A stretch of DNA of 64,000 nt, from assembly GCA_051000395.1 (NCBI GenBank), contig JBPCOI010000078.1, positions 15,780-79,779 of the forward strand, given 5' to 3'. Below, one piece after another: positions 8,737 to 30,055 of the stretch. The stretch's first letter is position 1. Every line of letters starts with the position of its first letter. The position numbers and the translations under genes are program-made. The DNA comes from Jatrophihabitantaceae bacterium (lineage in GTDB: Bacteria; Actinomycetota; Actinomycetes; Mycobacteriales; Jatrophihabitantaceae). The notes beneath the pieces were generated by a model. It saw only the letters and a program-made list of their open reading frames with translations. It had not been told where the DNA came from and searched no databases.

Positions 8737-9522
8737 GTGGCTCGGATGAGGCGACCGTTGCGCCGACGCACTGACTTGGTCGTCCTCCTGGTCGCCGTCC
8801 TCGTCCTCGTCGGTGTCCTGCTCTACGCATTGCACCGGACGTCGGCGAAGAAGACGACGGGGACACCGGCGGCGTGGGTCACCGACACCTTCCAGCGCCC
8901 GGACGGCAGTCTGGCCGGCCAGAACGTCGCCGGGCGTACCTATGCCATCCAGTTCGATCACGCGAATACGCAGCTCGTCATCCGCAACGGCCGGCTGGTG
9001 CGCGGCAACCCGGCGCACTACGGGCCGAAGGGCGCGCCGGTCCTGATCGTGCCGAACCCGACCGAGCCCGGCGTGGTGGCCGAGCGGTACGTGTTCACCG
9101 CGGGTCAGACGATGAACGAGAACGTCGTCGTCGGCGCGTGCGCGACGGCGTTCGGTGCCAGCTCCATCCAGCTGGCCGTCTACCCCGATCACTGGCTGCT
9201 CTACTACACGTTGAAAGTGCCGCCACCCGGTACGGGCGCTCTCGTTCACGAGCTTGCGACCGGCACGTTCCCCCACCCGCTCGCGACAGACGGGCGCACC
9301 GTGTACCAGAGCGCGATGCGGGTGGACCTGCCGAACTCCTCGGTCACCGTCGAGTACCCGGGCGGGTCGCGGACGGTCACGAACCCGGTCATCGCGCAGT
9401 ACTGGGGCAAGCTGATGGGCATCCAGATCCGGCATCCCCAGCCGACGGACGGTGACGTGCAGATCCTGGCCATCCAGGACGGCCCGACCTCGCTGCAGCC
9501 GTTCGCCGCAGGGCCGAAGTAA
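8737..9522 (+). CDS. Membrane-anchored protein, paralogue 1 of an unrecognised ~200-aa beta-rich domain family
   Basis: N-terminal TM (LVVLLVAVLVLVGVLLYAL). The domain aligns along its full length with ORFs 25558-26571 and 26692-27621. High third-position GC. Confidence 0.7.
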   Translation: MARMRRPLRRRTDLVVLLVAVLVLVGVLLYALHRTSAKKTTGTPAAWVTDTFQRPDGSLAGQNVAGRTYAIQFDHANTQLVIRNGRLVRGNPAHYGPKGAPVLIVPNPTEPGVVAERYVFTAGQTMNENVVVGACATAFGASSIQLAVYPDHWLLYYTLKVPPPGTGALVHELATGTFPHPLATDGRTVYQSAMRVDLPNSSVTVEYPGGSRTVTNPVIAQYWGKLMGIQIRHPQPTDGDVQILAIQDGPTSLQPFAAGPK

Positions 9523-9634
9523 GCGCCTCCCAACCCTTGCGCCGCAACGATTGCGAGTGTGGTTCGATACTGGCGGCTACGGGAGGACTGGAAGACGTGA
9601 TCCTGCGGGCACAACCGGCGGCTTCGTGCCGTCG

Positions 9635-10777
9635 ATGAAGGTACTGACCGTCGTCGGGACGCGGCCGGAGATCATCAGGCTGTCCCGGGTGATCACCCGG
9701 CTGGAGCGCGAGACCGAGCACCGCCTCGTCCACACCGGGCAGAACTGGGATCCGCAGCTGAGCGCCGTGTTCTTCGCCGAACTCGGCCTGCGCCAGCCCG
9801 ACCACTGGCTCGAGGTACCCGTCACCTCCGTGGGCGCCGTCCTCGGTGGCGTGCTTGCCGGTATCGAACCCGTGCTGCACGCCGAACGTCCCGACGCGGT
9901 GCTCGTGCTCGGCGACACGAACAGCGCCATCGCGGCGGTGATGGCCAAGCGGCTGGGCATCCCGGTGTTCCACATGGAAGCCGGCAACAGGTGCTTCGAC
10001 GAGAACGTGCCGGAGGAGACGAACCGGCGCATCATCGACCACACCGCGGACTTCAACCTCTGCTACACCGAGCACGCCCGGCGCAACCTGCTCGCCGAGG
10101 GACTGCCGACCCGGCGCGTCTTCGTGACCGGTTCGCCGATGGCCGAGGTGCTCGCCGCCTACGACGAGCAGATCGAGGCGTCGACCGTGTTGGACCGGCT
10201 CGGGCTCGACGCCGGCGGGTACTACCTCGTGTCGATGCACCGCGAGGAGAACGTCGACGACCCCGAGCACCTCGACATCCTCGTGCGAGCGGTCAGCGAG
10301 CTCGCCGACGGCTCCGGCCTGCGCGTCGTGGTCAGCACGCATCCGCGGCTGCGCAAGCGATTGGCCGCGCGCGGCACGGTCGAGCACGACGCGGTGCAGT
10401 TCCTGGAGCCGTTCGGATTCCTCGACTACAACAAGCTGCAACGCAACGCGCGCTGCGTGCTCTCCGACAGCGGCACGATCAGCGAGGAGTCGGCGATCAC
10501 CGGCTTCCCGGCAGTGACCATCCGCAACGCACTGGAACGCCCGGAGGCGCTCGACGCCGGCTCGATCGTGCTGAGCGGGGTGGACGCCGGCAGTATCCGC
10601 CGCTGTGTCGAGCTGGCGACCAGCCAGTGGGACGAGGGGTGGCGCCCGAGCGTGCCGCGCGACTACCTGGTGCCGGACTGCTCGGTCCGCGTCAGCCGGC
10701 TGATCTGCGGGCTGGGCGCGGTGCACGCCAACTGGTTGGGGTTGCGGCCCAAGCCCTGGCGGGAGCTGGGCGGCTGA
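9635..10777 (+). CDS. fnlC: UDP-2-acetamido-2,6-dideoxy-L-talose / UDP-GlcNAc 2-epimerase, CapG/FnlC/WbjD type
   Basis: ATG 9635; the upstream part of the track ORF is an extension. MKVLTVVGTRPEIIRLSRVI...HTGQNWD matches the CapG/FnlC subgroup (HTGQNYD) rather than WecB. Confidence 0.88.
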   Translation: MKVLTVVGTRPEIIRLSRVITRLERETEHRLVHTGQNWDPQLSAVFFAELGLRQPDHWLEVPVTSVGAVLGGVLAGIEPVLHAERPDAVLVLGDTNSAIAAVMAKRLGIPVFHMEAGNRCFDENVPEETNRRIIDHTADFNLCYTEHARRNLLAEGLPTRRVFVTGSPMAEVLAAYDEQIEASTVLDRLGLDAGGYYLVSMHREENVDDPEHLDILVRAVSELADGSGLRVVVSTHPRLRKRLAARGTVEHDAVQFLEPFGFLDYNKLQRNARCVLSDSGTISEESAITGFPAVTIRNALERPEALDAGSIVLSGVDAGSIRRCVELATSQWDEGWRPSVPRDYLVPDCSVRVSRLICGLGAVHANWLGLRPKPWRELGG

Positions 10778-11994
10778 TGCGGATCGTGCTCGTGCACCGC
10801 TACTTCTGGCCGGACACCCCGCCCTACGCGCACATCCTGCGCGAGCTCGCGCAGCACCTCGGGGCAGCCGGCCATCAGGTCACCGTGCTGAGCTGCCAGC
10901 CGTCCTACAACCGTGCCGTGGTCGCGAAGGCTCCTGCGCGCGAATGTCTGGCGCCCGGCGTCGAGGTGCGTCGCTGGCCGATTCTCCCGGATCGCCGCTT
11001 CGCCGCAGCCAAGGCCCTGAACCTGCTCTGGTTCTGCCTGCGGCTGCTGCTCGCCCGCCGAGGGCTGGGGCGGGTGGACGTGCTGATGGCCGCGTCGACG
11101 CCACCGATCGCGGTGGCGAAGTTGGGCGGCTGGCTCGCTCGCCGCAGCGGGGCGCGCTTCGTCTATCACAAGCAGGACATCTATCCAGAGGTGGTGACCG
11201 CGCCCGGAATCCTGCGCGACGGGCGGTGGGCCGCGCTGCTGCGCGCGCTGGACGCCCGCACCGAACGCGGTGCCGACCGCGTCGTCGTCCTGTCCGAGGA
11301 CATGGCCGCCACCGTCGCCGCCCGCGGCGTCGCGCCGGACCGGATCACGGTGATCAACAACTTCGACCCGTGGCTGCTCGATGAGCGCGCCGAACCGCCC
11401 CGCAGCACCGATCGGCCGAGCGGGCCGCTCCACGTGGTATTCGCCGGCAACCTCGGCCGGTTCCAGAACCTGGAGAACGTCTTCGAGGCCGCCACCCTGC
11501 TCCGCGGCGAGGACGGCGTCGCGTGGCACTTCTTCGGCACCGGCGCGCTGGCCGCCCAACTCGAAGAACAGGTGTGCTCCCGCGGTTTGCGCAACGTCCA
11601 ACTGCACGGCTACCGCCCGCCGGCGGAGGTCGCCGAGTTCCTGCGCACGAGGGCGGACGTCGGCATCGTGTCGCTGATGCCGGGCGTCATCCGGGCCGCG
11701 TACCCGAGCAAGACGATGTCCTACCTGCGGCAGGGTTGTCCGGTGCTCGCGCTCGTCGAGGCCGACAGCGAGCTGGCCCGTGACATCGAGGCGGCCGGCT
11801 CCGGGCTGCAGGTCGATCCCACCGACCCGGGCGCCCTCGCGTCCACCCTGCGCCGGCTTGCGGCCAATCCGGCGGAGCTGTCCGGCGCCGGGCGGCGCGC
11901 CGCTCAGCTCTACGAGCGCCGGTTCGGCCCCGCCGGACAGCTGGCTCGGTGGACACAGCTGTTCGATGAACTCGGCGAACGTAGGCCGACATGA
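10777..11994 (+). CDS. GT4 glycosyltransferase, WbuB-like (candidate L-FucNAc transferase)
   Basis: ATG 10777 overlaps the fnlC stop (TGATG). MRIVLVHRYFWPDTPPYAHILRELAQHLGAAGHQVTVL N-terminus and PSKTMSYLRQGCPVLA donor-binding region. Its position after fnlC mirrors fnlC-wbuB in O-antigen clusters. Confidence 0.82.
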   Translation: MRIVLVHRYFWPDTPPYAHILRELAQHLGAAGHQVTVLSCQPSYNRAVVAKAPARECLAPGVEVRRWPILPDRRFAAAKALNLLWFCLRLLLARRGLGRVDVLMAASTPPIAVAKLGGWLARRSGARFVYHKQDIYPEVVTAPGILRDGRWAALLRALDARTERGADRVVVLSEDMAATVAARGVAPDRITVINNFDPWLLDERAEPPRSTDRPSGPLHVVFAGNLGRFQNLENVFEAATLLRGEDGVAWHFFGTGALAAQLEEQVCSRGLRNVQLHGYRPPAEVAEFLRTRADVGIVSLMPGVIRAAYPSKTMSYLRQGCPVLALVEADSELARDIEAAGSGLQVDPTDPGALASTLRRLAANPAELSGAGRRAAQLYERRFGPAGQLARWTQLFDELGERRPT

Positions 11995-12767
11995 ACGCCC
12001 GCCGCTCCGCCCGTCCGGCCTCTGCGACGGCTCAGGCGTTCGACCGGGTGCTCGCCGCAATCGGTCTGCTCGCGTCGAGCCCGCTGTCGGCACTGGCGGC
12101 CGTCGCGATCAAGCTCTCGAGTGAGGGACCGATTCTGTACCGCGCGTCGCGCGTGGGTCAGGGTGGACGGTTGTTCACCATGTTCAAGTTCCGCACCATG
12201 CACGTAGAGCGCGCCGGCCAGGCTGCCGTGATCACCGGAGCGGACGACCCGCGCGTGTTCCCGGCCGGCCGGGTGCTGCGCCGGTTCAAGATCGACGAAC
12301 TGCCCCAGCTGGTCAACGTGGTCCGCGGCGACATGGCGCTCGTCGGGCCGCGGCCGGAGGAGCCGTCGATCGTGCGCGAGCACTACGAACCCTGGATGCA
12401 CGAGACGCTCTGCGTCGCGCCGGGTATCGCCAGTCCCGGCAGCCTCGCGTACTACGCCGACGAGGCGGCACTGCCGCAGGATGCCGGCGAGGCGCAACGC
12501 AGGTATCTCTCCGAGGTGCTAGCCGGCAAACTCGCACTGGAACTCGTGTACGTACGCAACCGGTCATGGCGTTACGACGTCGAACTCGTGCTGCGCGCGC
12601 TGGCGGCGATCCTCGGCAGGCGCGACGTGTTCCCGGCACGCCAGGCCTGGGAACGGGCCGAGGCGAAGCGCCTGGCCGACACGTGGCACTGTTACCCGAA
12701 GCCGGGCGCGGAAGGCGACGTCGAATCGAACGCCGCCGCGCGCCCCCGCGGCGAGGCGGGCGGATGA
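11991..12767 (+). CDS. Initiating phosphoglycosyl transferase (bacterial sugar transferase, PglC/WbaP-C type)
   Basis: ATGA overlap with the previous gene. One N-terminal hydrophobic helix. PILYRASRVGQGGRLFTMFKFRTM and DELPQLVNVVRGDMALVGPRPE signatures. Confidence 0.9.
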   Translation: MNARRSARPASATAQAFDRVLAAIGLLASSPLSALAAVAIKLSSEGPILYRASRVGQGGRLFTMFKFRTMHVERAGQAAVITGADDPRVFPAGRVLRRFKIDELPQLVNVVRGDMALVGPRPEEPSIVREHYEPWMHETLCVAPGIASPGSLAYYADEAALPQDAGEAQRRYLSEVLAGKLALELVYVRNRSWRYDVELVLRALAAILGRRDVFPARQAWERAEAKRLADTWHCYPKPGAEGDVESNAAARPRGEAGG

Positions 12768-13648
12768 CACCGCGGCACGTCGTCCTCGTCGGCGCGGCAC
12801 GGTCCGGGACGAAGATCCTGCGCGAGGCACTCGCCGCCTCCTCGGGTTCGGGGCGGGTGCCCTACGACATCGGCTACGTGTGGCGCTACGGCAACGAGGG
12901 ACACCCGGACGACGCGTTGCGCCCGGAGTGCTCGAGCGAGAAGTCCGCCCGCTTCATCCGTCACTTCGTCGACCGTTACGCCGACGGGCAGCCGAGCGCA
13001 GTCATCGAGAAGACGGTGGGCAACACGCTGCGGATCCCGTTCGTCGCCGAGGTGTTGCCCGACGCCAGCTACGTCCACCTGATCCGCAACGGGGTGGACG
13101 TCATCGAGTCCACCCGCCGCCAGTGGACCGAACCCACCGACGTCCGGTACCTGCTCGCGAAGGCCCGGCACTTCCCGCTGCGCCTGGTGCCCGGTTACGG
13201 CGTGAAGTACCTCCAGTCACTAGCTCGGCGCCGCACCAGCGCCGAGCGGCGGGTCGGTTCGTGGGGACCCCGCTACCCCGGGATCGATGACGACCTGCGC
13301 CACGAGGACCTACTCACCGTCTGCGCCCGCCAGTGGCGCACCGCCGTGACGCAGGCGCGCGCCGACCTCGGCCGCCTCACGGCGCCGGTGACCGAGATCC
13401 GCTACGAGCGGCTGGTGCAGGATCCACGCGCCGAGCTGACGCGGCTGGTCGACTTCCTCGATCTCGACGTGTCCGCGGCCGGGCTCGCTGCTGCAGCCGC
13501 GTCCATCACGCCGGAGCGCCAGGACATCGGACGTTGCTCGCTGGACGCCGGGGAACTCGCCGTCGTGCAACGCGAAGCCGGGTCGCTGCTGGCCCATCTC
13601 GACTACCCCGCAGCGCTGGTCGAGAACGGCCCCCGTCACGAGCGCTGA
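12764..13648 (+). CDS. Sulfotransferase family protein (1 of 3)
   Basis: ATG 12764 in ATGA overlap with the previous stop. 5'-PSB loop VGAARSGTK. 3'-PB-like HLIRNGVDVIES. Confidence 0.75.
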   Translation: MTPRHVVLVGAARSGTKILREALAASSGSGRVPYDIGYVWRYGNEGHPDDALRPECSSEKSARFIRHFVDRYADGQPSAVIEKTVGNTLRIPFVAEVLPDASYVHLIRNGVDVIESTRRQWTEPTDVRYLLAKARHFPLRLVPGYGVKYLQSLARRRTSAERRVGSWGPRYPGIDDDLRHEDLLTVCARQWRTAVTQARADLGRLTAPVTEIRYERLVQDPRAELTRLVDFLDLDVSAAGLAAAAASITPERQDIGRCSLDAGELAVVQREAGSLLAHLDYPAALVENGPRHER

Positions 13649-13676
13649 GCGTCATCGCAGCCGTACCCCTCAACCC

Positions 13677-13682
13677 TAGGAT
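13677..13682 (+). promoter_or_regulatory. -10 hexamer TAGGAT, 6 nt before GTG 13689 (leaderless-type promoter)
   Basis: TAGGAT-gcacac-GTG. There is no RBS in the 40-nt gap after the previous gene. The same TAGGAT-N6-GTG arrangement recurs at 26680 and 36123. Confidence 0.4.
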
Positions 13683-13688
13683 GCACAC

Positions 13689-14780
13689 GTGCCACGACCC
13701 TCCACTCCGCCCGGGCGGGTGATCCTGTGCGGCGCGGTGCACGAGGCTGCGCCCACCCTGGACGCGTTGCTCGCCAGCGAGCTGGCCGACGTGGTCGCCG
13801 TCGTCACCGCATCGGAACAGGGCCTGCGGGGGTTGGCCGGCCCCGTGGACCTGGCCACCCCGGCCCGCGCCGCGGGCGCGGCGGTGATCCGCACCGACGA
13901 CGTCAACGATCCCGACATCGTTGCCCAGTTGAGCGCGCTACAGCCCGACCTGCTCGTCGTCGTGGGCTGGACGCGTCTGATCGGCGCCGAGCTGCTCGCG
14001 GTGCCGCGGCGCGGATGCGTCGGATTCCATGCCTCCCTGCTGCCCCGGCACCGCGGTCGCGCTCCGGTCAATTGGTCGATCCTGCGCGGGGAGACGGTCA
14101 CCGGCAACACGATGATGCTTCTCGACCCCGGCGCCGACACCGGCGACATTGTCGATCAACGCAGCACGGCCGTCACCGCCGAGGACACCTGCGCGACGGT
14201 GTACGTGCGAGTCGCCGAACTCGGCGTCCAGATGCTGCGCGATCACCTGCCCGCCCTGCTCGCGGGCACGGCGCCGCGCCGGCGACAGGATCCGGCGCAG
14301 GGCGACATCCTGCCCAAGCGGACTCCGGCCATGGGCGTCATCGACTGGGCCCGTCCGCCGCGAGATGTACACAACTGGGTGCGTGCCCTCACCGCGCCCT
14401 ATCCTGGCGCCTTCGGGGACTGGAACGGGCGGCAGGTGATGATCTGGCGCACCCGAGTGCCCGAGCCACACGCGCACTGCGGCAACGATCCCGGCCTGGT
14501 CCTGGACGTCGACGACGCCGGGATGCAGGTCGCAACCGCGGGAGGATTGGTGACGGTAACCAGCATGTCGTGGGCGGAGCAGACGCCGACAGCGGCGCCC
14601 GCGTGGTGCGCGGCGAACGGCCTGGGTCCCGGGGCGCGCTTCGGCCTGCCGGCGCCGGAACTGGCGCGGTGGGCGCGCGGCGAAGGACCGCGTCCACAAC
14701 CACAGGGCGTGCACGATGCGTCCGGCCCACGCGAATCGGCCGGCCGCCTTCGCGCGGACACTCAGCGGTCCGGCACATGA
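13689..14780 (+). CDS. Formyltransferase (Fmt/ArnA-N/sugar N-formyltransferase family)
   Basis: GFHASLLPRHRGRAPVNWSIL (HxSLLPxxRG) and DTGDIV catalytic Asp region. C-terminal Fmt-like domain. Confidence 0.85.
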   Translation: MPRPSTPPGRVILCGAVHEAAPTLDALLASELADVVAVVTASEQGLRGLAGPVDLATPARAAGAAVIRTDDVNDPDIVAQLSALQPDLLVVVGWTRLIGAELLAVPRRGCVGFHASLLPRHRGRAPVNWSILRGETVTGNTMMLLDPGADTGDIVDQRSTAVTAEDTCATVYVRVAELGVQMLRDHLPALLAGTAPRRRQDPAQGDILPKRTPAMGVIDWARPPRDVHNWVRALTAPYPGAFGDWNGRQVMIWRTRVPEPHAHCGNDPGLVLDVDDAGMQVATAGGLVTVTSMSWAEQTPTAAPAWCAANGLGPGARFGLPAPELARWARGEGPRPQPQGVHDASGPRESAGRLRADTQRSGT

Positions 14781-15445: not shown

Positions 15446-15526
15446 GCAGCCCACCTCGCCGGCCAACTAGGCTACCCGCGAAAACGTCAGGCGATCTTGC
15501 CGAGAACCGATGCGAGGACTGAGTAC

Positions 15527-16267: not shown

Positions 16268-16272
16268 GCTCG

Positions 16273-17181: not shown

Positions 17182-17189
17182 CGCCCGGG

Positions 17190-18260: not shown

Positions 18261-18276
18261 GATCGAGCCCGGTTAG

Positions 18277-19467: not shown

Positions 19468-19478
19468 CGCGCCCTAAC

Positions 19479-22364
19479 CTAGCTGACCGGCTCGGGCACC
19501 GGTTGCGCCACGGGGGCGAGCACGAGATCGCCAGTGTCGCCGGTGTCGCTCGTGTCCTCGCCGAGCAGGTCCAGGCGCCGGTAGGCCACCCAGAACGGGA
19601 TCGTGGCGGCGACCTGGGCGATGGCAAGCCCCCAGGCCGCTCCTGACGCCCCGGCCGCGTAGGAGCCGGCGACCGCGCCCACGAGAACGAGCGCGCCGGT
19701 GACCAGAGACAGGCGCAGGATCGAGCCGGACCGGCGGCGTACCAGTAGGGCCACCATGGGTCCCTGCTGGACGCAGTTCGCGACGTTCCAGATGATGACG
19801 GGAAGCAGCAGCGACTTGGCGACGAACCAGTTCTGTCCGACCACCAGGCGACCGGCGTGGTCGGGTACGAGGTAGATCAGCAGGCCGAGCAACGTGACGG
19901 CCAGGCCGAGCACGATCGACAGGCCGGGGATGAATCGCCGCAGGCGCGGATCGCCGTTGCGGTAGAGCCTGCTGGCCTCCGGCACCCCGAAGCTGACGGC
20001 CGAGGACTGCACCGTCGTGCCGGGTGTCATCAGCGTCCGCGAGGCTGCCAAGCGGCCCAGCGCGACCGTGCCCGCGATAGCTCCGATCAACGCGAGCGAG
20101 ATGCGCCCGGCGACCTGCTGCGCGCTGTTTCCGGCGGCGATGCGGCTACCCAGGCTCCAGTGCTCGCGGGTCCAGGCCCAGGCCTGGTGCACTGCCGGCA
20201 GCAAGCGCGCCTGCGCCACGCCGACGACCACTCCGACCCCGGTCCCGGCCGCCCACAGCAGCAAGAGCAACGCGGTCGAGGCCGCGTGCGGCCTGAGTAC
20301 GAGGACGTACGCGAGCAGCAGCGTCGCGACCAGGCAGGCGCCGTCGTTGAACACTGCCCGCCACGGTCGGGCCACCGCGAAGAAGTAGACCCGCCAGCCT
20401 TCCTGCACGATGAGCGCCGGCAGCACGACCGCGCTCGCGAGGACCACCGAGCGGCTCTGCCCGTGCACTGCCAGCGAGCTGGCGGCGGTGATCGCGAAAG
20501 CGATCGTGCCGATCACGAGGCAGGCACCCAGCGCCTGCGCTCCGGCCCGCCGCTGCGCGGCGCGGGCGGCTGCGGAGAAGTTGATGCTCAGCGGGGCGAG
20601 GATCAGCGACTTGAGGATGACCTTGACCAGGAACGCGCCGGTGTAGGCGAGCGTGAACTCGCCCACGTGGCTCACCGACAAGTAGTGCAGCGCCAGGAAC
20701 AGGACCACGAAGTTCTGCAGGCTGGACAGGGCCTCGTCGGTGAAGGCCGCGATCGCGCGTCCCCGCGCCCCGCGCAGTGCGTGCGCGGCCAGTCCGCCGC
20801 CGGGGACGGGATGGAAGGCGTCCCAGCCATTGGGGCCAGGATCGAACAGACTGTCCGGCCACGCTGGGCTGTCCACGCCGAGCGCGTGCATTGTGGCCGG
20901 TGCGGCCGGCGCCTTCGGCGCGGGCGCTTCGACCGGCTGCGCCGGCGAGGTCCGTGTCGGGGCGGTGAGACCGGGTGTGGCAGCAATCGGCGCGTGCGCT
21001 GCCCGCCGCTTCGAGAGGAAGTACGTCACCAGCACGAATGGCAGCAGCAGCAGCAGGCGCTGGATGTTGCGGTCGGTCCAGGTCGCGGTACCACCCCACG
21101 CGAGGTCACTGATGCTTCCGACCAGAATGGCCAGGCCCACGAAGCTATACACGTCCCGTTGGCTGATCAACGGCTTGCCGATACGCCGCTCGAGTCGGTT
21201 GTCGAGCCAGCGGACGGCCCAGCCGAGCACCGGGATCATGAGGATCAGGCCGAACCAACCGAAGTTGTAATACCACTCGCCTTGTGGCATGCACGGCATC
21301 GACAGCTTCGTCGTTATCGTCTCGGGGTGCAGATCGAGGGCGAGGACCCGGCCGAACTGCAGCGGCTTGTGCGGCCACAACTGCCGCGGCACGATCACGA
21401 TCACCTCGGCGAGCAACGTCGACCCGCCACCCCCGGTCAGGTGCTCGTGGAGCAACTGTCCGACGGTCGCAAGCGGGTTCACCAAGGAACCCAGACCTGA
21501 TGCCGACGCCTGCACGGTGTTGTTCGTCGCGCTGGCCAACCTCTGCTGTCCGATCGTCGCGAACAGCGCCAGCGTGGGTAACACGGTGAGCACGGCGATC
21601 GGTTTCACCCGGGTCCGCAACCGATACTGCGCGAGCACCACGGTGGCGATCACCAGCGTCGCGAGCCGCAACCTGCCGTATCCGGAGAAGACGACCAGGT
21701 AGTAGACGATGAACACGCCGCCCGCCAGACAGGTGCGCACCGGTGTCTGAAGTGCCTTGATACCGCCGCTGAGCAGCAGCGACGAGGCGAACATGATGAC
21801 ACCCACCTCGGCCGCACAGATGGTGAGACCGCCGAGAGCCGGCCCGGTTCGGTTGAGCGTGGCACCTACAAGGAACAGGATGGTGCCCACGAACCGCAGA
21901 CTGGTTGCCTCACCTAGCGAGATCGGCGGACGCACCACGTGCGCAACGGCGCCCGAGCGCATCGACCGTCGCCAGAAGAGCAGGTACATGGCGGCGGTGG
22001 AGGCATAGATCACCAAGCCCGCTTCGAGGATGCTGCCACGCGTTGTGGCGGGCGGAACCTGTCCGGCCCAGTACCAGGCTCCGCAGCCGACCATGATTCC
22101 GGCGGTGATGCAGTACACCCCCGCGGCCGAGACGCGGCTACCCCCGTGCGTCACGAAAGCCGCGATGCCCGCGGCGATTGCGGCGATGGCCAGGATGCGC
22201 AGTGCGAGGATGTCGTTGCCGCTGTTGGCGATCGCCAGGACTACCGGTGGCACGGCGAGGGAACTCAACTCGACCGGCAACCGCCCGATCCCGTGCCTCG
22301 GCTGGCCTGGCTCGGGGTCGGGTCGCGCGGCAGGTCGTTCGCGCGGCAGTGACGGCGCAACCAC
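19479..22364 (-). CDS. Single ORF fusing a Wzy-like repeat-unit polymerase (N-half) to a MOP/Wzx-like flippase (C-half)
   Basis: 961 aa and uninterrupted. N-half has ~10 TM plus a loop with PRQLWPHKPLQFG (oligosaccharide repeat-unit polymerase-like). A Pro/Ala linker follows (aa ~455-495). C-half has ~12 TM starting ...SSLQNFVVLFLALHYLSVSHVGEFTLAY. Internal in-frame ATG at 20891. Confidence 0.7.
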   Translation of the reverse strand: MVAPSLPRERPAARPDPEPGQPRHGIGRLPVELSSLAVPPVVLAIANSGNDILALRILAIAAIAAGIAAFVTHGGSRVSAAGVYCITAGIMVGCGAWYWAGQVPPATTRGSILEAGLVIYASTAAMYLLFWRRSMRSGAVAHVVRPPISLGEATSLRFVGTILFLVGATLNRTGPALGGLTICAAEVGVIMFASSLLLSGGIKALQTPVRTCLAGGVFIVYYLVVFSGYGRLRLATLVIATVVLAQYRLRTRVKPIAVLTVLPTLALFATIGQQRLASATNNTVQASASGLGSLVNPLATVGQLLHEHLTGGGGSTLLAEVIVIVPRQLWPHKPLQFGRVLALDLHPETITTKLSMPCMPQGEWYYNFGWFGLILMIPVLGWAVRWLDNRLERRIGKPLISQRDVYSFVGLAILVGSISDLAWGGTATWTDRNIQRLLLLLPFVLVTYFLSKRRAAHAPIAATPGLTAPTRTSPAQPVEAPAPKAPAAPATMHALGVDSPAWPDSLFDPGPNGWDAFHPVPGGGLAAHALRGARGRAIAAFTDEALSSLQNFVVLFLALHYLSVSHVGEFTLAYTGAFLVKVILKSLILAPLSINFSAAARAAQRRAGAQALGACLVIGTIAFAITAASSLAVHGQSRSVVLASAVVLPALIVQEGWRVYFFAVARPWRAVFNDGACLVATLLLAYVLVLRPHAASTALLLLLWAAGTGVGVVVGVAQARLLPAVHQAWAWTREHWSLGSRIAAGNSAQQVAGRISLALIGAIAGTVALGRLAASRTLMTPGTTVQSSAVSFGVPEASRLYRNGDPRLRRFIPGLSIVLGLAVTLLGLLIYLVPDHAGRLVVGQNWFVAKSLLLPVIIWNVANCVQQGPMVALLVRRRSGSILRLSLVTGALVLVGAVAGSYAAGASGAAWGLAIAQVAATIPFWVAYRRLDLLGEDTSDTGDTGDLVLAPVAQPVPEPVS

Positions 22365-22521
22365 GACTGATCACCAACCTCCGCTGAGGGCGTGGTTTAG
22401 GCGCCTTGCCGGGTCGAGCGCAGCGCCGCACCTTCGCGGCCGAGCGACCAGACGGGTCGCGCCGAAGCAGATCCTAGCGCGGGAAATCCAGCGCTGCCGC
22501 CCGAGATCGGGAAGCGGAGGC

Positions 22522-24066
22522 CTAGCCGTCCGGGTCGCCTGATCTCTGTGCGGGTGTGAGCGCGTCCGGGTGCGGGGTTCCGGTCAGCGTCGTGCGCGGA
22601 TCGACGGGCAGGAAGGTCGGTGCGGTAGGCGACTGCCGGAAATCGAAATCGGCGCTGAGATCACCGAGGATCTTGGCGTTCTCGCGAACGTCCGGGCGCG
22701 GATCCGGCCGACCGTCGGTCGCGGGATCGATGCGCTGGCCGCCGAGGAAGTCGTCCTCGATGAACTTGTCGTATGCGTCGAAGGACAGGATCTGATGATC
22801 GACGTAGCCCTTCTTCGCATACGGACTGATCACGATCCCGGGGACTCGCAGTCCGTAGCCGTTCTGGTCCACCGTCGGCGGCACGACGTGGTCGTAGAAG
22901 CCGCCCCAGTCGTCCCAGGCGAGGAAGATCGCCGTCGATTTCCAGTCCGGACCGCGCATGACGGCATTGATCAGGCTCGTCACGTACGACTGGCCGTAGC
23001 TGACCGGCGAGGGCGGGTGCTCGCTGTTCTGACCGGAGGGGATCACCCAGCTGACTGCGGGCAGGGTGCCGCTCTTGGCCGCGGCGTAGAACCTGGCGGT
23101 CGACTGGATGTTGCCTTCCTGCTTGTCTGCCCGGACCGTGTCGAAGTACGGCAGCGGATTCCAGTAACCGGGAGTCCTGGCGTTCTGCTTGACCGGCGCG
23201 CAGGTGATCGCCGAGTCGTTCTGGCAGTCGGGCTCGATGCCGTTGGCGACGTAGTACGCCCACGACACGTGATGCCGGTGCAGGAGGTAGGTGAGATCCG
23301 TCCAGGCATAGATCGGACGTGAGCCGGCGCCACCCTTGACGGCTGCGGCGTTCGGGAGGCCGGGGTCCGGCGGTACGCCCGGATTGACGTCCTGGTTCAC
23401 GCAGGTCATCGGCGCGTTGTGCCGCCCGCATTGTGCCGACCATTCGGACACCATGAACAGGTGGACGGGCAGGCTGTAGGAGGCGTCCGGCTCGAACATG
23501 TGGTCTTGCAGCACGTAGTTCCTGGCGTAATACCAGTAGTTGGGGATGTCGCTGCCGGTGTGGTAGCCCATCACGTCGGGCTGATTGGAGTTGGTGCAGG
23601 CGGGGTCCTGCGGATCTCCGCACCCATGCTTGGCCAACGCGAGTTCGGTGTTGAAACCGTCCATCTTCCCGCCGTGGATGTCGGCTGCTGCGTCGTTCGC
23701 GCCGTGCGGTCCACCGCCGTTGACGTCGGCGTGATCGGGATAGGGCCGCACGCACGGCTTGTTGTCCGCGGCGATGACGCAGACGGTGGGCTTGCCGTTG
23801 GCCATTCGGATGCCGTCGGCGCCGGGGTAGGTGCCGAAGTAGCTGTCGAACGAGCGGTTCTCCTGCATGATCATGATGACGTGCTTGATCACGTGGATCC
23901 CGCCAGTGGCGCCCGTCCGCGCCGACCCGAGGACGCGGGGCCCCGGTTCTGCCGCACCGGACGCGGACCCACCGGCGGGCTGCCCCGAGGAGGCCGTGCA
24001 TGCCGCGGCAAGCAGCATCAGCGCACCCGCGACGGCGAGGCCGGCCCTGCTGCGAATGCGAATCAC
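22522..24066 (-). CDS. Phosphoesterase-family lipoprotein (phospholipase C / AcpA acid phosphatase family)
   Basis: GTG 24066. Lipobox [30 protein letters not shown] signature. The upstream part of the 669-aa track ORF is discarded. Confidence 0.85.
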
Positions 24067-24165
24067 CCACCAATCCCGTCGAGCACGCGAGTGATCACCG
24101 TAGCCGCTGGCAAACGCGAGGCGGGACGGGGTCTGCTCACATCGCGGAGCACAGCGTCGGTTCCG

Positions 24166-24534
24166 GTGTGGGAGGGCGACGGGGTGACCGCGGCGGAGAT
24201 CGACGCGTATCTGGCGCAACTGCCAGAGCCCAAGCGTGGCACGTTGCAGGCAGTGCGCGAGTCGATCCGTCGGGTGCTGCCGGAGGCCGAGGAAGGCATC
24301 TCGTATCGGATGCCGGCATTCCGGTTGGACGGCAAGGTCGTTGCGGGGTTCGCCGCGTTCACCAACTACGTGAGCTACTTGCCGCACAGCGGGTCGGTGC
24401 TCGCCGAGCTCGCGTCGATCTTGGGCGGCTTCGAACAGACCAAGAGTTGGCTGCATTTCCCGGTCGAGACCCCGCTGCCCGACGCGCTCGTCGCGCAACT
24501 CGTCGAGGCCAAGCTGCGCCAGCTCGGACACTGA
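24166..24534 (+). CDS. DUF1801 (YdhG-like) small protein
   Basis: Last ~120 codons of track ORF 23419-24534. [43 protein letters not shown]. Start at GTG 24166 or 24184 is uncertain. Confidence 0.55.
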
Positions 24535-24621
24535 TCGGTGGGTCGGCCCGAATCGAATAGGCCCGCACGGCGAGCGCCCCGACTACGACCGCCACCGACG
24601 TCGATCTCGTAGCCACTGCGG

Positions 24622-25491
24622 TCAGTACCCGTACCGCGCCCGCAGGGGCAGCGTTATCGCCTCGACGAGGCGACGTTCGCGCGCCGGCATCTGCCCCTTC
24701 CACCGGTCGTCGATCTGAATGGCACGGCTGGGATCGAAGCGCCACGGGTTGCCGGCGATGGCGTGCCCGCCTGAGACAGCCTCGACCGCCGGTGGCGGCT
24801 TCAGGCCGAGCCGTTCGCAGCTCGCGTACGGATCGGCGACCAGGTCCTCGTAGCGGATGCGGGCCGCCTGGCGGGGCGATTGCCTGGCCATTCGCTCGAA
24901 CGCCAGGTTGTAGCTCAGCCAGTTGACCGCCGAGCGAGCGGGCGCGTGCTGCGGCATCAGCTGCCCGCTCATCGACGGATCGGGCTTGGGGCGGCTCAGC
25001 GAGAAGGCGACCGCCCGCGGATCGCGTACCAGCTGGAGCACCCGCAGGCTCCTCGGCAGCCGATCGGCGACGACGACCGTGGACGCGACCTTCGAGCTGT
25101 CGACCAGCGCGCTCGCTCCGCTGACTGCCGTGATCGCCTCCTCGGTCCTGCGCCGCAGCTCCACGGCGTCCGCCGGCACGAGCGCACTGAGGCCGCGGAC
25201 GATGGTCGCGCGCTGCGACGGCTCGCCGGACTCCACCCGGGCCGCCTCGGCAGCGGACGTCAGGCCGGTCCGGCCGAGCACGAGGTCCTGCACCGGTCCC
25301 CAGACCGGACACTCACGCAACACCACGCCGCAGGTGCACAGCCGGCCGTTGACGAACGATCTCCAGAGCAGGTGCAGTTCCCCGGCGTTGAAGCCGCCGG
25401 TGGCCAGTGAGACCAGGCCAGCCAGCAGCGTCGAGCCCGAGCGGACCGATCCGCCGATGTACCACAGGGGCGGCGTGGCGACGCTGGGCAT
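24622..25491 (-). CDS. Sulfotransferase family protein (3 of 3)
   Basis: ATG 25491 with AAGGGA RBS. 5'-PSB loop GGSVRSGSTLL. 3'-PB motif LQLVRDPRAVAFS. Confidence 0.7.
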   Translation of the reverse strand: MPSVATPPLWYIGGSVRSGSTLLAGLVSLATGGFNAGELHLLWRSFVNGRLCTCGVVLRECPVWGPVQDLVLGRTGLTSAAEAARVESGEPSQRATIVRGLSALVPADAVELRRRTEEAITAVSGASALVDSSKVASTVVVADRLPRSLRVLQLVRDPRAVAFSLSRPKPDPSMSGQLMPQHAPARSAVNWLSYNLAFERMARQSPRQAARIRYEDLVADPYASCERLGLKPPPAVEAVSGGHAIAGNPWRFDPSRAIQIDDRWKGQMPARERRLVEAITLPLRARYGY

Positions 25492-25557
25492 CGAGTCCCT
25501 TTCGTGCGCGAGGATCGGGGGCGGACGGTGCGCTCCCGGCGGCACGTGAGGATAGCG

Positions 25558-26571
25558 CTACGAGAACGGCGCGAAGCCGGTCGCACCCGCGGTGACCGAG
25601 AGCACCTGGACGTCGCCGTCCGTCGCCGCCGGATGGCGCACCTGGAATCCGGCGAGCGTCCCCCAGTGCTGCGCGATCGCCGGGTCGGTGAAGGTCTGAG
25701 TCGCGCCCGGGTAGTCGACCGTGACCGACGAGTTCGCCAGGTCGACGCTCATGACCGTATGGTACACGGTCTGCGCGTCGGTCGTCAGCGGCGTTGCGAA
25801 CTGGCCGCTGGCCAGGTCCACCAAGGCGCTCCCGGCCTGGGCATAGAAGAGCACCCATCCGCCTGGATACACCGCGAACTGCACGGAGCTGTAACCGAAA
25901 CTCCGCGTACACACGCCGACTACGGCATTCTCGCGGCGCGTCGCACCCGGCGTGAAGACGTAGCTCATCCCGACGACCGTCGGCGCGACCGGGCCTGGCG
26001 CGGTGAGCACCGGCGCTCCGTCCGGGCCGAAGTTGGCGGGGTTGCCACGAACCATGCGCTCGTTCCGGATCACGAGTCGGGTGTTACCCGGGTCGAACTG
26101 CACGGCGTAGGGCTGGCCCCATGGTGAAGAGTCACCGTTCAGGTTCCGATCCGAACGACGGAAGGCGTCCGACATCCCCGGACCGGGAGGGCCCGGGGGC
26201 TGGGAGGGGGGCGGCGGGACGTAGGTGCTCGGGTCGGGCGCGGCCGGCGTGCTGCCGCCTTGCCCTGCCCCCGTAGCGGGACGGTTGCCGGGCCCGCCTG
26301 CTGTCGTGCGGGCACTCCTCGACGGCGCGAGCGTGCGACGAGCAGCCGGCGGTCGCGATAGCGACGCGCGGCGGTGAACCGACGACGACCGCGGACGAAG
26401 CAACGCGGTGCCGGCCGCGCGTGGCGATGCGGGCGAGCTGGCTTGCGGCGATGGCTGCTGGGCGCCGCGGCCCACCGTGACGCCGAGCGCGATAGCAGCC
26501 GTCAATCCGACGGCAGCGACCGCCGCCGCGGCTGAGCGCCAGTTGCCGGCGCTGACCCCCACCCGGTCCAC
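25558..26571 (-). CDS. Membrane-anchored protein, paralogue 2 of the unrecognised beta-rich domain family
   Basis: GTG 26571. TM helix, ~100-aa Pro/Ser/Ala linker, then a domain co-linear with 8737-9522 (LVIRNERMVRGNP, ENAVVGVC, SSVQFAVYP, SSVTVDYPG, TDGDVQVL). Confidence 0.7.
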   Translation of the reverse strand: MDRVGVSAGNWRSAAAAVAAVGLTAAIALGVTVGRGAQQPSPQASSPASPRAAGTALLRPRSSSVHRRASLSRPPAARRTLAPSRSARTTAGGPGNRPATGAGQGGSTPAAPDPSTYVPPPPSQPPGPPGPGMSDAFRRSDRNLNGDSSPWGQPYAVQFDPGNTRLVIRNERMVRGNPANFGPDGAPVLTAPGPVAPTVVGMSYVFTPGATRRENAVVGVCTRSFGYSSVQFAVYPGGWVLFYAQAGSALVDLASGQFATPLTTDAQTVYHTVMSVDLANSSVTVDYPGATQTFTDPAIAQHWGTLAGFQVRHPAATDGDVQVLSVTAGATGFAPFS

Positions 26572-26679
26572 GAGCGGAACCTACCCGCGCGTCGCCGGAC
26601 CCGCCTGTGGATCTCCAGCACGTCCTCGGCCGGGACGCCGGGGCGCCTCCAGCTGCTCCGGTGGCAGTGCCGCGACGGG

Positions 26680-26685
26680 TAGGAT
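26680..26685 (+). promoter_or_regulatory. -10 hexamer TAGGAT, 6 nt before GTG 26692 (leaderless-type promoter)
   Basis: TAGGAT-gcgcgc-GTG in the 120-bp divergent gap between paralogues 2 and 3. Confidence 0.4.
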
Positions 26686-26691
26686 GCGCGC

Positions 26692-27621
26692 GTGCCGCTC
26701 GCTGACTTCCGTGAACGATGGGACCAGCGGCGCGAGCTGCGGCAGATGGAAGGCAGTCAGCGCACCTGGCTTGTCGCCGTGGGGGTGCTCGCCGCGTGCG
26801 TGTTGGTCGCGTTCGCCGCGCATGCGCTGTCCTCCAAGTCCCCGCGCAGACCCGGCGCAGGCTCGCCTGGGACGCCGGCACCGACACAGACACCGGCTGG
26901 CACCGCGGCACTGGCAGGCGTGGCGTGGGGGTACTTCCACCGCTCCGACCGCAACATCGCCGGTCAGACGGCACCGAGCGGCCAGCTCTACGGTGTGCAC
27001 GTGCAAGGCCCGTCCGGCACCGGCCTGGAGATCCACGATGGCCGTCTGGTCCGGGAACATCCGCAGCAGTACGGCGTATCCGGCGCTCCGATCCTCATCG
27101 TGCCCGTGGCGACGCAACCGGGCGTGGTGGCCGAGCAGTACGTTTTCACCCGGGGCCGGACGATGAATCAGAACGTCGTCATCGGGTTGTGCGCCACGTC
27201 GTTCGCGGCCAGCTCCATCCAGTTCGCGGTGTCACCCACGGATTGGAAACTGTTCTATACGGTCAAGCTTCCGGCACCCGCCAGACGTACCGCGATCGTC
27301 ACCCTGTCGTCGGGACGATTCGCCATGCCGCTTGCGGTCGACGGCGTGACCCGCTATCAGTCGATCATGCAGGTCGACCCCGTGCGTTCCTCGGTCACCG
27401 TCTCCTATCCGGGTGGCACGAAGACGCTCGTCAATCCGACGATCGGCGCCTACATCGGGCCGCTGTTCGGGGTGCAGATCCGCCGCCCCCTCCCCACCGA
27501 CGGCGACGCCGCGATCACGGCGATTGCCGCGGGACCGGATAGGCGAGCGATCGCCCGGCTTGCCTGCCGAGCGGTCGCGAATGCAGGCAGCGCCGTTCGG
27601 GGCTTCTTCGGCTGCACGTAA
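26692..27621 (+). CDS. Membrane-anchored protein, paralogue 3 of the unrecognised beta-rich domain family
   Basis: TM helix (WLVAVGVLAACVLVAFAAHAL), short linker, homologous domain (QNVVIGLC, SSIQFAVSP, SSVTVSYPG, TDGDAAITA), plus a ~35-aa extra C-terminal tail. Confidence 0.7.
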   Translation: MPLADFRERWDQRRELRQMEGSQRTWLVAVGVLAACVLVAFAAHALSSKSPRRPGAGSPGTPAPTQTPAGTAALAGVAWGYFHRSDRNIAGQTAPSGQLYGVHVQGPSGTGLEIHDGRLVREHPQQYGVSGAPILIVPVATQPGVVAEQYVFTRGRTMNQNVVIGLCATSFAASSIQFAVSPTDWKLFYTVKLPAPARRTAIVTLSSGRFAMPLAVDGVTRYQSIMQVDPVRSSVTVSYPGGTKTLVNPTIGAYIGPLFGVQIRRPLPTDGDAAITAIAAGPDRRAIARLACRAVANAGSAVRGFFGCT

Positions 27622-30009: not shown

Positions 30010-30055
30010 GCCAGTCTTAAGTCTGGCCTGAGCGCGGCAAGAGCCCGGCGCCCTG

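What the first reader, a model, noticed from the sequence alone, without database searches (positions are those of the whole stretch)
8737..27621. Three paralogues of an unrecognised membrane-anchored ~200-aa domain scattered through the glycan locus
ORFs 8737-9522 (+), 25558-26571 (-) and 26692-27621 (+) share one architecture: an N-terminal TM helix, a variable linker, then a beta-rich domain. The domain aligns by eye end to end. Shared blocks include F.R[PS]D..[LI].G; L[VE]I[RH][ND][GE]R[LM]VR; GAP[VI]L; VV[AG].[RQS]YVFT.G; [EQ]N[VA]V[VI]G.C[AT]; SS[IV]Q[LF]AV.P..W.L[FY]Y; SSVTV.YPG; G[IFV]Q[IV]R[HR]P; TDGD. I cannot assign it to a named family. The opening strand pattern resembles concanavalin-like jelly-rolls, but that is a guess. 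Paralogues 2 and 3 are divergently paired, and paralogue 3 is followed by the Tat-secreted tachylectin/DMFase-like gene. Triplication inside one locus suggests an extracytoplasmic glycan-binding or glycan-processing role, for example one paralogue per modification state.
Basis: seen in the sequence. Interest (0 to 1): 0.7.

Follow-up and report, generated by a model that had tools for sequence, protein, structure and literature searches.

The report
Unnamed lectin-fold partner of sugar-chain polymerase
Three related genes in a soil actinobacterium's sulfated-polysaccharide gene cluster encode membrane-tethered, outward-facing proteins with a lectin-like fold from an unnamed family that travels with, and is sometimes fused to, the sugar-chain polymerase, so they are probably a so-far overlooked glycan-binding accessory of that machinery.

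Summary
ORFs 8737-9522(+), 25558-26571(-) and 26692-27621(+) are true paralogues (45-53% identity, BLASTP E 5e-55 to 6e-78; shuffled controls at most 28 bits). Each has a basic N-terminus, one hydrophobic helix, a tether of 13, 98 or 30 residues, and a ~205-aa all-beta domain. There is no fourth copy. No Pfam, NCBIfam or PDB-sequence match covers the domain. An exhaustive HMM search finds a rare family (144 representatives, all unnamed, from metagenomes or MAGs). AlphaFold2 with a 100-sequence alignment (pLDDT 95.9) plus Foldseek gives a concanavalin-A-like beta-sandwich. The nearest structures are glycan-binding domains of actinophage tail proteins, lectins, GH16 and PL7 enzymes. GH16 and PL7 catalytic motifs are absent. 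All eight independent relatives' loci long enough to judge with actinobacterial-type high-GC gene content, like the window, carry sulfotransferase or sulfate-activation genes. In two, the gene directly follows a homologue of the window's 961-aa Wzy-like membrane protein; in a third the two are fused. Other members are parts of phage tail-fibre-like proteins. Best reading: an exported, membrane-tethered glycan-binding accessory of Wzy-dependent sulfated-polysaccharide assembly. An enzymatic role is not excluded. It is a new sequence family of a known fold, of moderate interest.

The parts
8737..9522 (+). Paralogue 1 (261 aa; a public gene call starts at ATG 8746, giving 258 aa). Basic N-terminus; TM helix at aa 14-32 (nt 8776-8832); 13-aa tether; ConA-like domain at nt 8872-9519.
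   Evidence: Its position in front of the UDP-GlcNAc 2-epimerase gene is conserved in L009.
25558..26571 (-). Paralogue 2 (337 aa). Hydrophobic helix at aa 15-33 (nt 26473-26529); 98-aa Pro/Ala/Ser/Gly/Arg-rich tether (nt 26179-26472); ConA-like domain at nt 25561-26178. It is the first gene of the minus-strand run P2 > sulfotransferase > phosphoesterase > Wzy-like 961-aa gene > DegT > GT4.
26692..27621 (+). Paralogue 3 (309 aa; identical to NCBI 'MAG: hypothetical protein ACR2LF_11280 [Jatrophihabitantaceae bacterium]'). Helix at aa 26-46 (nt 26767-26829); 30-aa tether (nt 26830-26919); ConA-like domain at nt 26920-27540; 26-aa C-terminal tail.
19479..22364 (-). 961-aa polytopic membrane protein, the inferred partner. 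The N-terminal half is Wzy-like (repeat-unit polymerase; sub-threshold hits). The C-terminal block of about 10 TM helices has no family assignment.
   Evidence: 48% identity (E 1e-87) to the membrane part of P0008, which is fused to the domain. Homologues lie directly upstream of the domain gene in L008 and L011.
24622..25545 (-). Sulfotransferase gene immediately downstream of paralogue 2. The same adjacency occurs in L015.
3913..36064 (.). The enclosing sulfated-polysaccharide locus. Contents: DUF4012; two CapD-like genes; UDP-GlcNAc 2-epimerase; two GT4; Bac_transf priming transferase; sulfotransferases at 12566-13648, 16273-17181 and 24622-25545; formyltransferase; PIG-L deacetylase; FkbM methyltransferase; DegT aminotransferase; phosphoesterase; tachylectin/DMFA2_C protein; Wzz/BY-kinase; LMW-PTP.

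Best explanation
The three genes encode exported proteins held at the outer face of the cytoplasmic membrane by an N-terminal helix and a flexible tether. Each displays a ~205-residue concanavalin-A-like beta-sandwich from a previously unnamed family.

They act as non-catalytic, lectin/CBM-type glycan-binding accessories of the Wzy-dependent pathway that builds this locus's (predicted) sulfated polysaccharide. Most likely they grip the nascent or finished chain next to the Wzy-like polymerase, to retain, guide or present it. Phages use the same module in tail-fibre proteins to recognise cell-surface glycans.

Shown: paralogy, architecture, fold, absence from named families, repeated genomic linkage to sulfotransferase and Wzy-like genes, one gene fusion, and occurrence in phage-like proteins.

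Inferred: N-in/C-out topology, glycan binding itself, and cooperation with the polymerase.
For: **Fold.** The AlphaFold2 model has pLDDT 95.9 and pTM 0.91. Foldseek finds 288 PDB hits at E<=1e-3, all ConA-like. The best geometric match is the Mycobacteriophage Douge central fibre gp20 (TM 0.62, rmsd 4.5 A). Other hits are the phage J-1 Dit CBM2, the Emp46/47 and VIP36 lectins and legume lectins. BFVD hits are actinophage minor tail proteins. Domains of Douge gp20 bind mycobacterial glycans experimentally (PMC13033339).

**No catalytic signature.** 0 of 97 sequences have the GH16 ExDxxE or ExDxE motif, and PL7 motifs are essentially absent. No acidic pair is conserved on any strand.

**Export and tethering are constant while the device varies.** The family uses a TM helix, a lipobox-like Cys, an RR-type signal, or fusion behind a polytopic protein via an extra TM helix.

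**Linkage.** Sulfotransferase or PAPS-synthesis genes lie within about 5 kb in L005, L006, L008, L009, L011, L013, L014 and L015, as well as in the window. A homologue of the window's Wzy-like 961-aa protein lies directly upstream in L008 and L011 and is fused to the domain in P0008/L006.

**Charge.** Domains of the EPS-locus clade are more basic than the rest (median net charge +2 versus -8 for phage-type members; Mann-Whitney p = 7e-5, or 0.0016 for members with verified context). That fits a polyanionic ligand.
Against: - No binding has been measured.
- Foldseek similarity is at fold level only (8-17% identity), and enzymes (GH16, PL7, Crh5) score as well as lectins by E-value.
- A polar cluster (S98, Q100, W108, Q185, R187) is conserved at 70-93% across both cellular and phage-type members. 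That is more typical of a catalytic or structural core than of ligand-specific lectin sites.
- Two of the window's three domains are not basic (pI 6.7 and 5.4).
- The charge test ignores phylogenetic non-independence.
- I could not inspect model coordinates, so I do not know whether the conserved cluster lines an open cleft.
- The Wzy assignment of the partner rests on sub-threshold hits (26 bits against a cutoff of 40).
- One distant member from a low-GC organism (L010) shows no glycan-locus linkage.
Confidence: 0.5

Rival explanations
1. The domain is an enzyme with a new active site on a ConA-like scaffold. It would be a lyase, hydrolase or transglycosylase that trims, releases or cross-links the sulfated polymer outside the cell. 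This would parallel polymer-specific glycanases encoded in other EPS loci (ExoK/ExsH GH16 glycanases of succinoglycan, AlgL, PslG; from general knowledge). In phages it would be a depolymerase.
For: - GH16 glycanases and transglycosylases and a PL7 lyase are among the top Foldseek hits.
- A polar/aromatic cluster (S98, Q100, W108, Y145, Q185, R187) is conserved at 70-93% across cellular and phage members. Q100/Q185 covary with H/E in distant members: QQ 85, HE 8, HQ 3, QE 0. Gln/Arg/Tyr/His sets are what beta-jelly-roll lyases use (general knowledge).
- One member carries RTX repeats, like ExsH.
- L005 has a UDP-glucose dehydrogenase gene next door, so a uronic acid substrate is possible.
Against: - The GH16 and PL7 signature motifs are absent in 97 of 97 or nearly all sequences.
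- No acidic pair is conserved on strands.
- TM-scores to the enzymes are lower (0.40-0.56) than to phage glycan-binding domains (0.62-0.71).
- In P0018 the domain sits beside a beta-helix region, only weakly matched (Pfam Beta_helix E 0.0028, below threshold), of the kind that usually supplies the depolymerase activity in tailspikes. That would suggest a binding role there.
- L013 already encodes a heparinase II/III-like enzyme next to the domain gene.
Confidence: 0.27
2. The domain does not touch glycan. It is a protein-protein module that stabilises, activates or regulates the Wzy-like membrane protein, or senses the envelope. In phage proteins it would be a structural or oligomerisation module.
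For: - Tight adjacency to, or fusion with, the Wzy-like protein.
- The conserved cluster is invariant across very different contexts, which could reflect a structural or interface role.
- In many phage-like members the domain lies in the N-terminal third, not at the distal tip.
Against: - The ConA-like fold, and all the nearest structural neighbours that have been characterised, are carbohydrate-active or carbohydrate-binding.
- Three paralogues, two of them far from the Wzy-like gene, do not fit a 1:1 subunit.
- A 98-residue tether would place P2's domain far from the membrane.
Confidence: 0.13
3. The genes are domesticated or remnant phage receptor-binding modules. They would mask or decoy the surface polysaccharide against phage adsorption and would not take part in biosynthesis.
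For: More than half of the family representatives are long, signal-less, tail-fibre-like proteins. One of them lies in a phage-like element (L016).
Against: - There are no phage genes in the locus.
- The cellular copies form their own clade, with synteny to biosynthetic genes conserved across several genomes and a fusion to the polymerase-like protein.
- Deposited phage genomes hold no close relative.
Confidence: 0.05

Closest known systems
Glycan-binding domains of siphophage baseplate and fibre proteins (Mycobacteriophage Douge central fibre gp20, PDB 8ZDP/8ZDQ; Lactobacillus phage J-1 Dit CBM2, PDB 5LY8)
   Same: The fold is the same ConA-like beta-sandwich, with the best TM-scores to solved structures (0.62 and 0.56). 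Part of the family is itself embedded in actinophage-type tail-fibre proteins. Douge gp20 domains bind cell-envelope glycans experimentally.
   Different: Identity is only about 15%, and the family profile has no sequence-level match to any PDB chain. The window proteins are cellular, membrane-tethered and encoded among biosynthesis genes, not virion parts.
Pfam DUF7257 (actinophage minor tail proteins)
   Same: Several DUF7257 proteins are among the nearest predicted viral structures (TM 0.57-0.62). Both are uncharacterised ConA-like modules of Actinobacteria-associated proteins.
   Different: No Pfam hit of any kind covers the domain in about 145 members scanned. hhalign of the family profile against DS6A gp23 gives probability 0.4%.
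GH16 glycanases encoded in or near EPS loci (e.g. ExoK/ExsH of Sinorhizobium succinoglycan; Crh5 transglycosylase, PDB 6IBU)
   Same: A ConA-like fold, exported, acting on the cell's own extracellular polysaccharide. 6IBU is the top Foldseek hit by E-value. One family member has RTX repeats, like ExsH.
   Different: The catalytic ExDxxE or ExDxE motif is absent in 97 of 97 sequences. TM-score is only 0.49. The comparison with ExoK/ExsH rests on general knowledge and was not tested here.
L-type lectins and LamG-type modules (Emp46p/Emp47p, VIP36, ERGIC-53, legume lectins)
   Same: Membrane-anchored, lumen- or outward-facing ConA-like carbohydrate-recognition domains on a single TM anchor; TM-scores up to 0.58.
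   Different: These are eukaryotic cargo receptors. Their anchor is C-terminal, not N-terminal. There is no sequence relationship, and their metal-site residues were not examined here.
Canonical Wzx/Wzy/Wzz pathway accessories (Wzz/PCP chain-length regulators)
   Same: An extracytoplasmic partner of the Wzy polymerase, encoded in the same locus.
   Different: Wzz proteins are alpha-helical oligomers with two TM helices, and the locus already has one (32302-35184). A ConA-like partner is not part of the textbook pathway.

Membership tests
Concanavalin A-like lectin/glucanase fold (superfamily level) | A ~200-residue sandwich of two antiparallel beta-sheets (jelly-roll), recognisable by structure comparison. 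| tested here: met
   The model has pLDDT 95.9 and pTM 0.91 with 15 strands. There are 288 PDB hits at E<=1e-3, all of this fold, and 155 BFVD hits.
Glycoside hydrolase family 16 | Catalytic E-x-D-x(-x)-E motif on a strand of the concave sheet. | tested here: not met
   The regex finds it in 0 of 97 family domains. No acidic pair is conserved on strands. There is no Pfam Glyco_hydro_16 hit.
Polysaccharide lyase family 7 | Signature blocks R(S/T/N)EL, Q(I/V)H and YFKAG(V/I)YNQ carrying the Arg/Gln/His/Tyr catalytic set (from general knowledge). | tested here: not met
   Q[IV]H occurs in 2 of 97, R[STN]EL in 1 of 97 and YFKAG in 0 of 97 sequences, and none of these is a window paralogue. TM-score to 1VAV is only 0.40.
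Pfam DUF7257 | A match to the family HMM, or detectable profile homology to a member. | tested here: not met
   Pfam gives no hit at E<=1 for the three paralogues, none among 100 members at E<=0.001 and none among 45 more at E<=0.01. hhalign against DS6A gp23 gives probability 0.4%. Only one DUF7257 member was tested, as a single sequence.
Pfam Laminin_G_3 / LamG | A match to the family HMM over the domain. | tested here: not met
   There is no hit over the domain. One long member hits Laminin_G_3 weakly (E 1.9e-4); whether this hit overlaps the domain was not checked.
Carbohydrate-binding module (CAZy sense) | Demonstrated, non-catalytic binding to a defined carbohydrate. | not testable with these tools
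   This needs binding assays with the purified domain. Only fold analogy and genomic context are available here.
Exported, membrane-tethered protein (N-in, C-out signal-anchor) | One N-terminal hydrophobic helix preceded by positive charges, with the domain on the trans side. | tested here: inconclusive
   The hydrophobic 19-mers score 3.25, 2.16 and 2.46, with Arg-rich N-termini in P1 and P3. Relatives use lipobox-like or RR signals, or a fusion after a polytopic protein through an extra TM helix. No dedicated topology or signal-peptide predictor was available, and P3 has a possible AHA cleavage site.
Wzy-type repeat-unit polymerase (for the 961-aa partner) | A match above threshold to Wzy/O-antigen polymerase models; a polytopic protein with a large external loop. 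| tested here: inconclusive
   TIGR04370 scores E 4e-6 but 26 bits against a cutoff of 40. XrtY-associated Wzy scores E 6e-4, and Pfam O-ag_pol_Wzy E 0.03. There are about 20 hydrophobic segments.

The most novel reading that the evidence does not exclude
The family is a dedicated, previously unrecognised extracytoplasmic subunit of Wzy-type polymerases in actinobacterial sulfated-glycan pathways. It would be a polymer-holding or sulfation-pattern-reading module that decides what the polymerase extends or where the chain goes. The three paralogues, on tethers of 13, 30 and 98 residues, would form a relay that passes the polyanionic chain from the membrane surface outward through the wall. Phages would have captured the same module to read that glycan.
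Probability: 0.15. Interest if true: 0.75.

Novelty: new variant of a known kind. Interest (0 to 1): 0.5.

Why it matters
Sulfated polysaccharides were long thought to be almost confined to cyanobacteria among bacteria. Actinomycete clusters with sulfotransferases were proposed only in 2026 and remain unverified (PMC13390465).

This unnamed domain is one of the most consistent non-enzymatic markers of such loci in the few genomes that have them, and in one case it is physically fused to the polymerase-like protein. If it binds the polymer, it has three uses:
- a handle for purifying and detecting bacterial sulfated glycans;
- a candidate new carbohydrate-binding module family specific for sulfated sugars;
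- a component missing from the textbook Wzx/Wzy scheme for Gram-positive cells.

Its presence in phage tail-fibre-like proteins also links host glycan assembly and phage receptor recognition through one module.

Tried and rejected
1. Pfam and NCBIfam scans of the three proteins gave only sub-threshold hits to the TM region.
2. Profile searches against PDB sequences gave noise with A1 and zero hits with A3.
3. The word-indexed 5.8-billion-protein search was run twice, with a single sequence and with a 22-sequence domain alignment. It returned only the window's own P1 and P3 plus one homologue. The second run added nothing. The exhaustive HMM search was what revealed the family.
4. tblastn of P1 and of a phage-like member's domain against 50,697 deposited phage genomes found no match.
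The metagenome scan with A2 found no relative. The GTDB genome scan gave a single locus.
6. The cluster look-up for names returned ten singleton clusters with no names.
7. A search for DUF7257 in the literature found no papers.
8. GH16-like hydrolase and PL7-like lyase membership were considered and rejected because the motifs are absent.
9. A weak anti-sigma-factor hit (E 0.17, N-terminal region only) was considered and dismissed.
10. I considered that P2 might really start at Met133, with no anchor, because P0004 starts there. This was rejected: P0004 is a gene call truncated by a contig end, and the upstream frame is open and homologous.
11. I could not read model coordinates, so I could not map the conserved residues in 3D.
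Full report
**1. The observation**

The three ORFs exist exactly as described: P1 8737-9522(+) 261 aa, P2 25558-26571(-) 337 aa, P3 26692-27621(+) 309 aa.

BLASTP:

| Pair | Identity | Aligned length | E-value |
|---|---|---|---|
| P1-P2 | 53% | 211 aa | 6e-78 |
| P1-P3 | 48% | 272 aa | 3e-74 |
| P2-P3 | 45.5% | 200 aa | 5e-55 |

The best score in 100 composition-preserving shuffles per pair was at most 27.7 bits, against 169-227 bits observed.

Each protein has one strongly hydrophobic N-terminal segment. In P1 and P3 it is preceded by Arg-rich sequence. A low-complexity tether of 13 (P1), 98 (P2) or 30 (P3) residues follows, then a ~205-residue domain.

P0004, a 96%-identical public gene call, starts right at the domain, so I checked that P2's long extension is real. 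That call is truncated by a contig end. The upstream frame is open to the contig edge, and it encodes a homologous linker that differs only by substitutions.

A family HMM run over all six frames finds exactly three copies in the window. P3 is identical to an NCBI 'hypothetical protein' of a Jatrophihabitantaceae MAG.

**2. The setting**

Window 3.9-36 kb is a Wzy-type polysaccharide locus. It contains:
- DUF4012 and two CapD-like dehydratases;
- UDP-GlcNAc 2-epimerase;
- two GT4 glycosyltransferases and a Bac_transf priming transferase;
- three clear sulfotransferases;
- a formyltransferase, a PIG-L deacetylase, an FkbM methyltransferase and a DegT aminotransferase;
- a phosphoesterase and a tachylectin/DMFA2_C protein;
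- a Wzz/BY-kinase and an LMW-PTP.

It also holds a 961-aa polytopic protein with no Pfam family. Its N-terminal half gives consistent but sub-threshold hits to repeat-unit polymerase (Wzy) models.

**3. The family**

No Pfam or NCBIfam model and no PDB sequence matches the domain.

The word-indexed search found almost nothing. The exhaustive HMMER search of 1.84 billion cluster representatives found 144 proteins at E<=1e-3, of which 87 were at E<=1e-10 and 29 at E<=1e-30.

None of about 145 members scanned has a Pfam model over this domain. Ten that I looked up are unnamed singleton clusters from metagenomes or MAGs. Only one of 185,579 GTDB species genomes carries a detectable relative.

Two architectures occur:
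- Short proteins (median about 270-310 aa). They have an N-terminal TM helix, a lipobox-like signal or an RR-containing signal, and the domain at the C-terminus.
- Longer, signal-less proteins (median about 450 aa, up to 1528 aa). Their N-termini and accessory domains are those of actinophage tail proteins: Mtd_N, DUF5907, collagen-like repeats, Gly_rich_2, and PHROG tail-fibre and tail-spike families. One of them lies in a phage-like element with Gp77, Gp80, DUF5047, lysin-type and FtsK genes.

**4. The fold**

With only four sequences AlphaFold2 was unconvincing (pLDDT 63). With the 100-sequence alignment it gave pLDDT 95.9 and pTM 0.91, an all-beta sandwich.

Foldseek against the PDB returns only concanavalin-A-like folds. 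By TM-score the closest is the central fibre protein gp20 of Mycobacteriophage Douge (0.62, rmsd 4.5 A). Next come the Emp46/47 lectin domains (0.53-0.58), the phage J-1 Dit CBM2 (0.56), GH16 enzymes (0.49-0.56), legume lectins, and a PL7 alginate lyase (0.40).

Against predicted viral structures the best hits are Gordonia, Rhodococcus and Mycobacterium phage minor tail proteins, several of them labelled DUF7257 (TM up to 0.71). Domains of the Douge fibre protein were shown to bind mycobacterial arabinomannan/LAM and alpha-glucan (PMC13033339).

The resemblance to DUF7257 is structural only: hhalign of the family profile against DS6A gp23 gives 0.4% probability.

**5. Genomic linkage**

This is the strongest functional evidence.

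| Locus | Family member | Context |
|---|---|---|
| L009 | P0010 | Repeats P1's arrangement: domain gene, then UDP-GlcNAc 2-epimerase, Bac_transf, sulfotransferase, FkbM, DegT, GT4, two more sulfotransferases |
| L005 | P0028 | CysDN, APS kinase-LMW-PTP fusion, TauE, Wzz/BY-kinase, CapD-like gene and UDP-glucose dehydrogenase around the gene |
| L008 | P0009 | Directly follows a homologue of the window's 961-aa Wzy-like gene, with overlapping stop and start; a sulfotransferase follows |
| L011 | P0006 | Directly follows a 930-aa homologue of the 961-aa gene; a sulfotransferase follows |
| L006 | P0008 | The two are one 1279-aa polypeptide: Wzy-like membrane protein, an Arg-rich loop, one more TM helix, the domain, then a TIG domain. 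The locus is otherwise collinear with the window's (Bac_transf, sulfotransferase, FkbM, DegT, GT4). |
| L013, L014, L015 | P0024, P0022, P0004 | Sulfotransferase genes within a few kb |
| L010 | P0017 | The only informative context without such linkage; a distant member from a low-GC organism |

In the window, P2 heads the minus-strand gene run that contains the 961-aa gene.

In a neighbour-joining tree the three window copies cluster together, at about 55% mutual identity. They lie next to the Wzy-adjacent and Wzy-fused members, and the phage-type members fall outside. The triplication is therefore lineage-specific but old.

**6. Binding module or enzyme?**

Across 97 full-length domains the conserved positions are D5, F7, R9, D11, G21, Y24, G78, S98, Q100, W108, D140, Y145, G165, D171, W178, G179, Q185, R187 and D193, in P1-domain numbering.

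No sequence has a GH16 ExDxxE or ExDxE motif, the PL7 signatures are essentially absent, and no acidic pair is conserved on a strand. This argues against the known ConA-fold hydrolase and lyase mechanisms.

Q100 and Q185 covary perfectly with H/E in distant members: QQ 85, HE 8, HQ 3, QE 0. The two side chains must therefore touch. By strand periodicity they lie with S98, A102, W108 and R187 on the non-core face of neighbouring strands. This last step is inference, because I could not inspect the coordinates.

Such a Trp/Gln/Arg surface suits sugar binding. However, its near-invariance in both cellular and phage members would also suit a new catalytic centre or a structural network.

Domains of the EPS-locus clade carry more positive charge than the others (median net +2 versus -8 for phage-type; Mann-Whitney p = 7e-5, or 0.0016 using only members with verified context). 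That fits a polyanionic ligand. The window's P1 and P2 domains are not basic, however, and the test ignores shared ancestry. P2's tether does carry 12 Arg.

**7. Conclusion**

The most likely reading (about 0.5) is an exported, membrane-tethered lectin/CBM-type module that works beside the Wzy-like polymerase on the sulfated polymer. A new enzyme on the same scaffold is a serious rival (about 0.27). A purely protein-protein role (about 0.13) and a phage-derived decoy (about 0.05) are less likely.

What visibly distinguishes the copies is tether length (13, 30 and 98 residues) and charge.

**8. Novelty**

The fold is well known and the general logic, an outward-facing glycan module in an EPS locus, is not surprising. 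But the sequence family is unnamed and unannotated, and it is very rare. It is specifically tied to predicted sulfated-polysaccharide loci of uncultured Actinomycetota and fused in one case to the polymerase-like protein, and phage tail proteins share it. Actinobacterial sulfated-EPS clusters themselves were first proposed only recently (PMC13390465).

I rate it a new variant of a known kind, with interest 0.5.

Noticed in passing
window 19479-22364 (-): A 961-aa polytopic protein with no Pfam family. Its N-terminal half is sub-threshold Wzy-like (TIGR04370, E 4e-6). Its C-terminal block of about 10 TM helices matches nothing, yet is 48% identical to the same block in P0008 and is conserved in L008 and L011. 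No recognisable Wzx/MOP flippase or LCP ligase turned up among the locus ORFs I scanned, so this block might be the flippase.
   Followed up: partly
L005:11704-13512 (-): An APS kinase (CysC) fused to a low-molecular-weight phosphotyrosine phosphatase. It sits next to a CysDN fusion, TauE and a Wzz/BY-kinase. This is an unusual physical link between sulfate activation and the tyrosine-kinase control circuit of polysaccharide export.
   Followed up: no
window 27670-30009 (+): A 779-aa tachylectin + DMFA2_C (dimethylformamidase beta-like C-terminal) protein starts 48 bp after paralogue 3. No homologue was found in the related loci.
   Followed up: partly
window 22522-24531 (-): A phosphoesterase-family protein (PF04185; phospholipase C / acid phosphatase type) sits inside the P2 operon, between a sulfotransferase and the Wzy-like gene. 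Its role in a sulfated-glycan pathway is unexplained.
   Followed up: no
window 13689-15445 (+): A sugar-type formyltransferase (13689-14780) overlaps, in another frame, a long ORF (13727-15445) whose PIG-L deacetylase domain covers only aa 355-475. The real PIG-L gene probably starts near 14.75 kb. The ORF 12566-13648 (sulfotransferase) likewise overlaps the Bac_transf gene by about 200 bp and probably starts later.
   Followed up: partly
family alignment, P1-domain positions 100 and 185 (window nt 9169-9171 and 9424-9426): There is perfect covariation between two near-invariant glutamines: Q/Q in 85 sequences, H/E in 8, H/Q in 3, and never Q/E. The H/E set also loses S98, W178 and R187, which suggests a functionally distinct distant subfamily.
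   Followed up: partly
window 8833-8871, 26179-26472, 26830-26919: The tethers between anchor and domain differ greatly among the paralogues (13, 98 and 30 residues). The 98-residue one is Pro/Ala/Ser/Gly-rich with 12 arginines. If extended, the three domains would sit at very different distances from the membrane.
   Followed up: partly
L013:1572-4575 (-): A heparinase II/III-like protein (Hepar_II_III_N/C) and a sulfotransferase lie next to the family member P0024, whose domain is extremely basic (pI 11.4).
   Followed up: no
P0018 (1528 aa, ENA contig of 151 kb): A tailspike-like giant: a weakly matched right-handed beta-helix region, then this domain (aa 582-784), then two further ~300-aa repeats and a glycine-rich C-terminus, on a long, apparently cellular contig.
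   Followed up: no
window 152-2041 (-), 44860-48694 (+), 55230-56645 (+): Ordinary housekeeping genes flank the locus: DnaK; a class A penicillin-binding protein followed by a GT87 glycosyltransferase; and replicative helicase DnaB.
   Followed up: no
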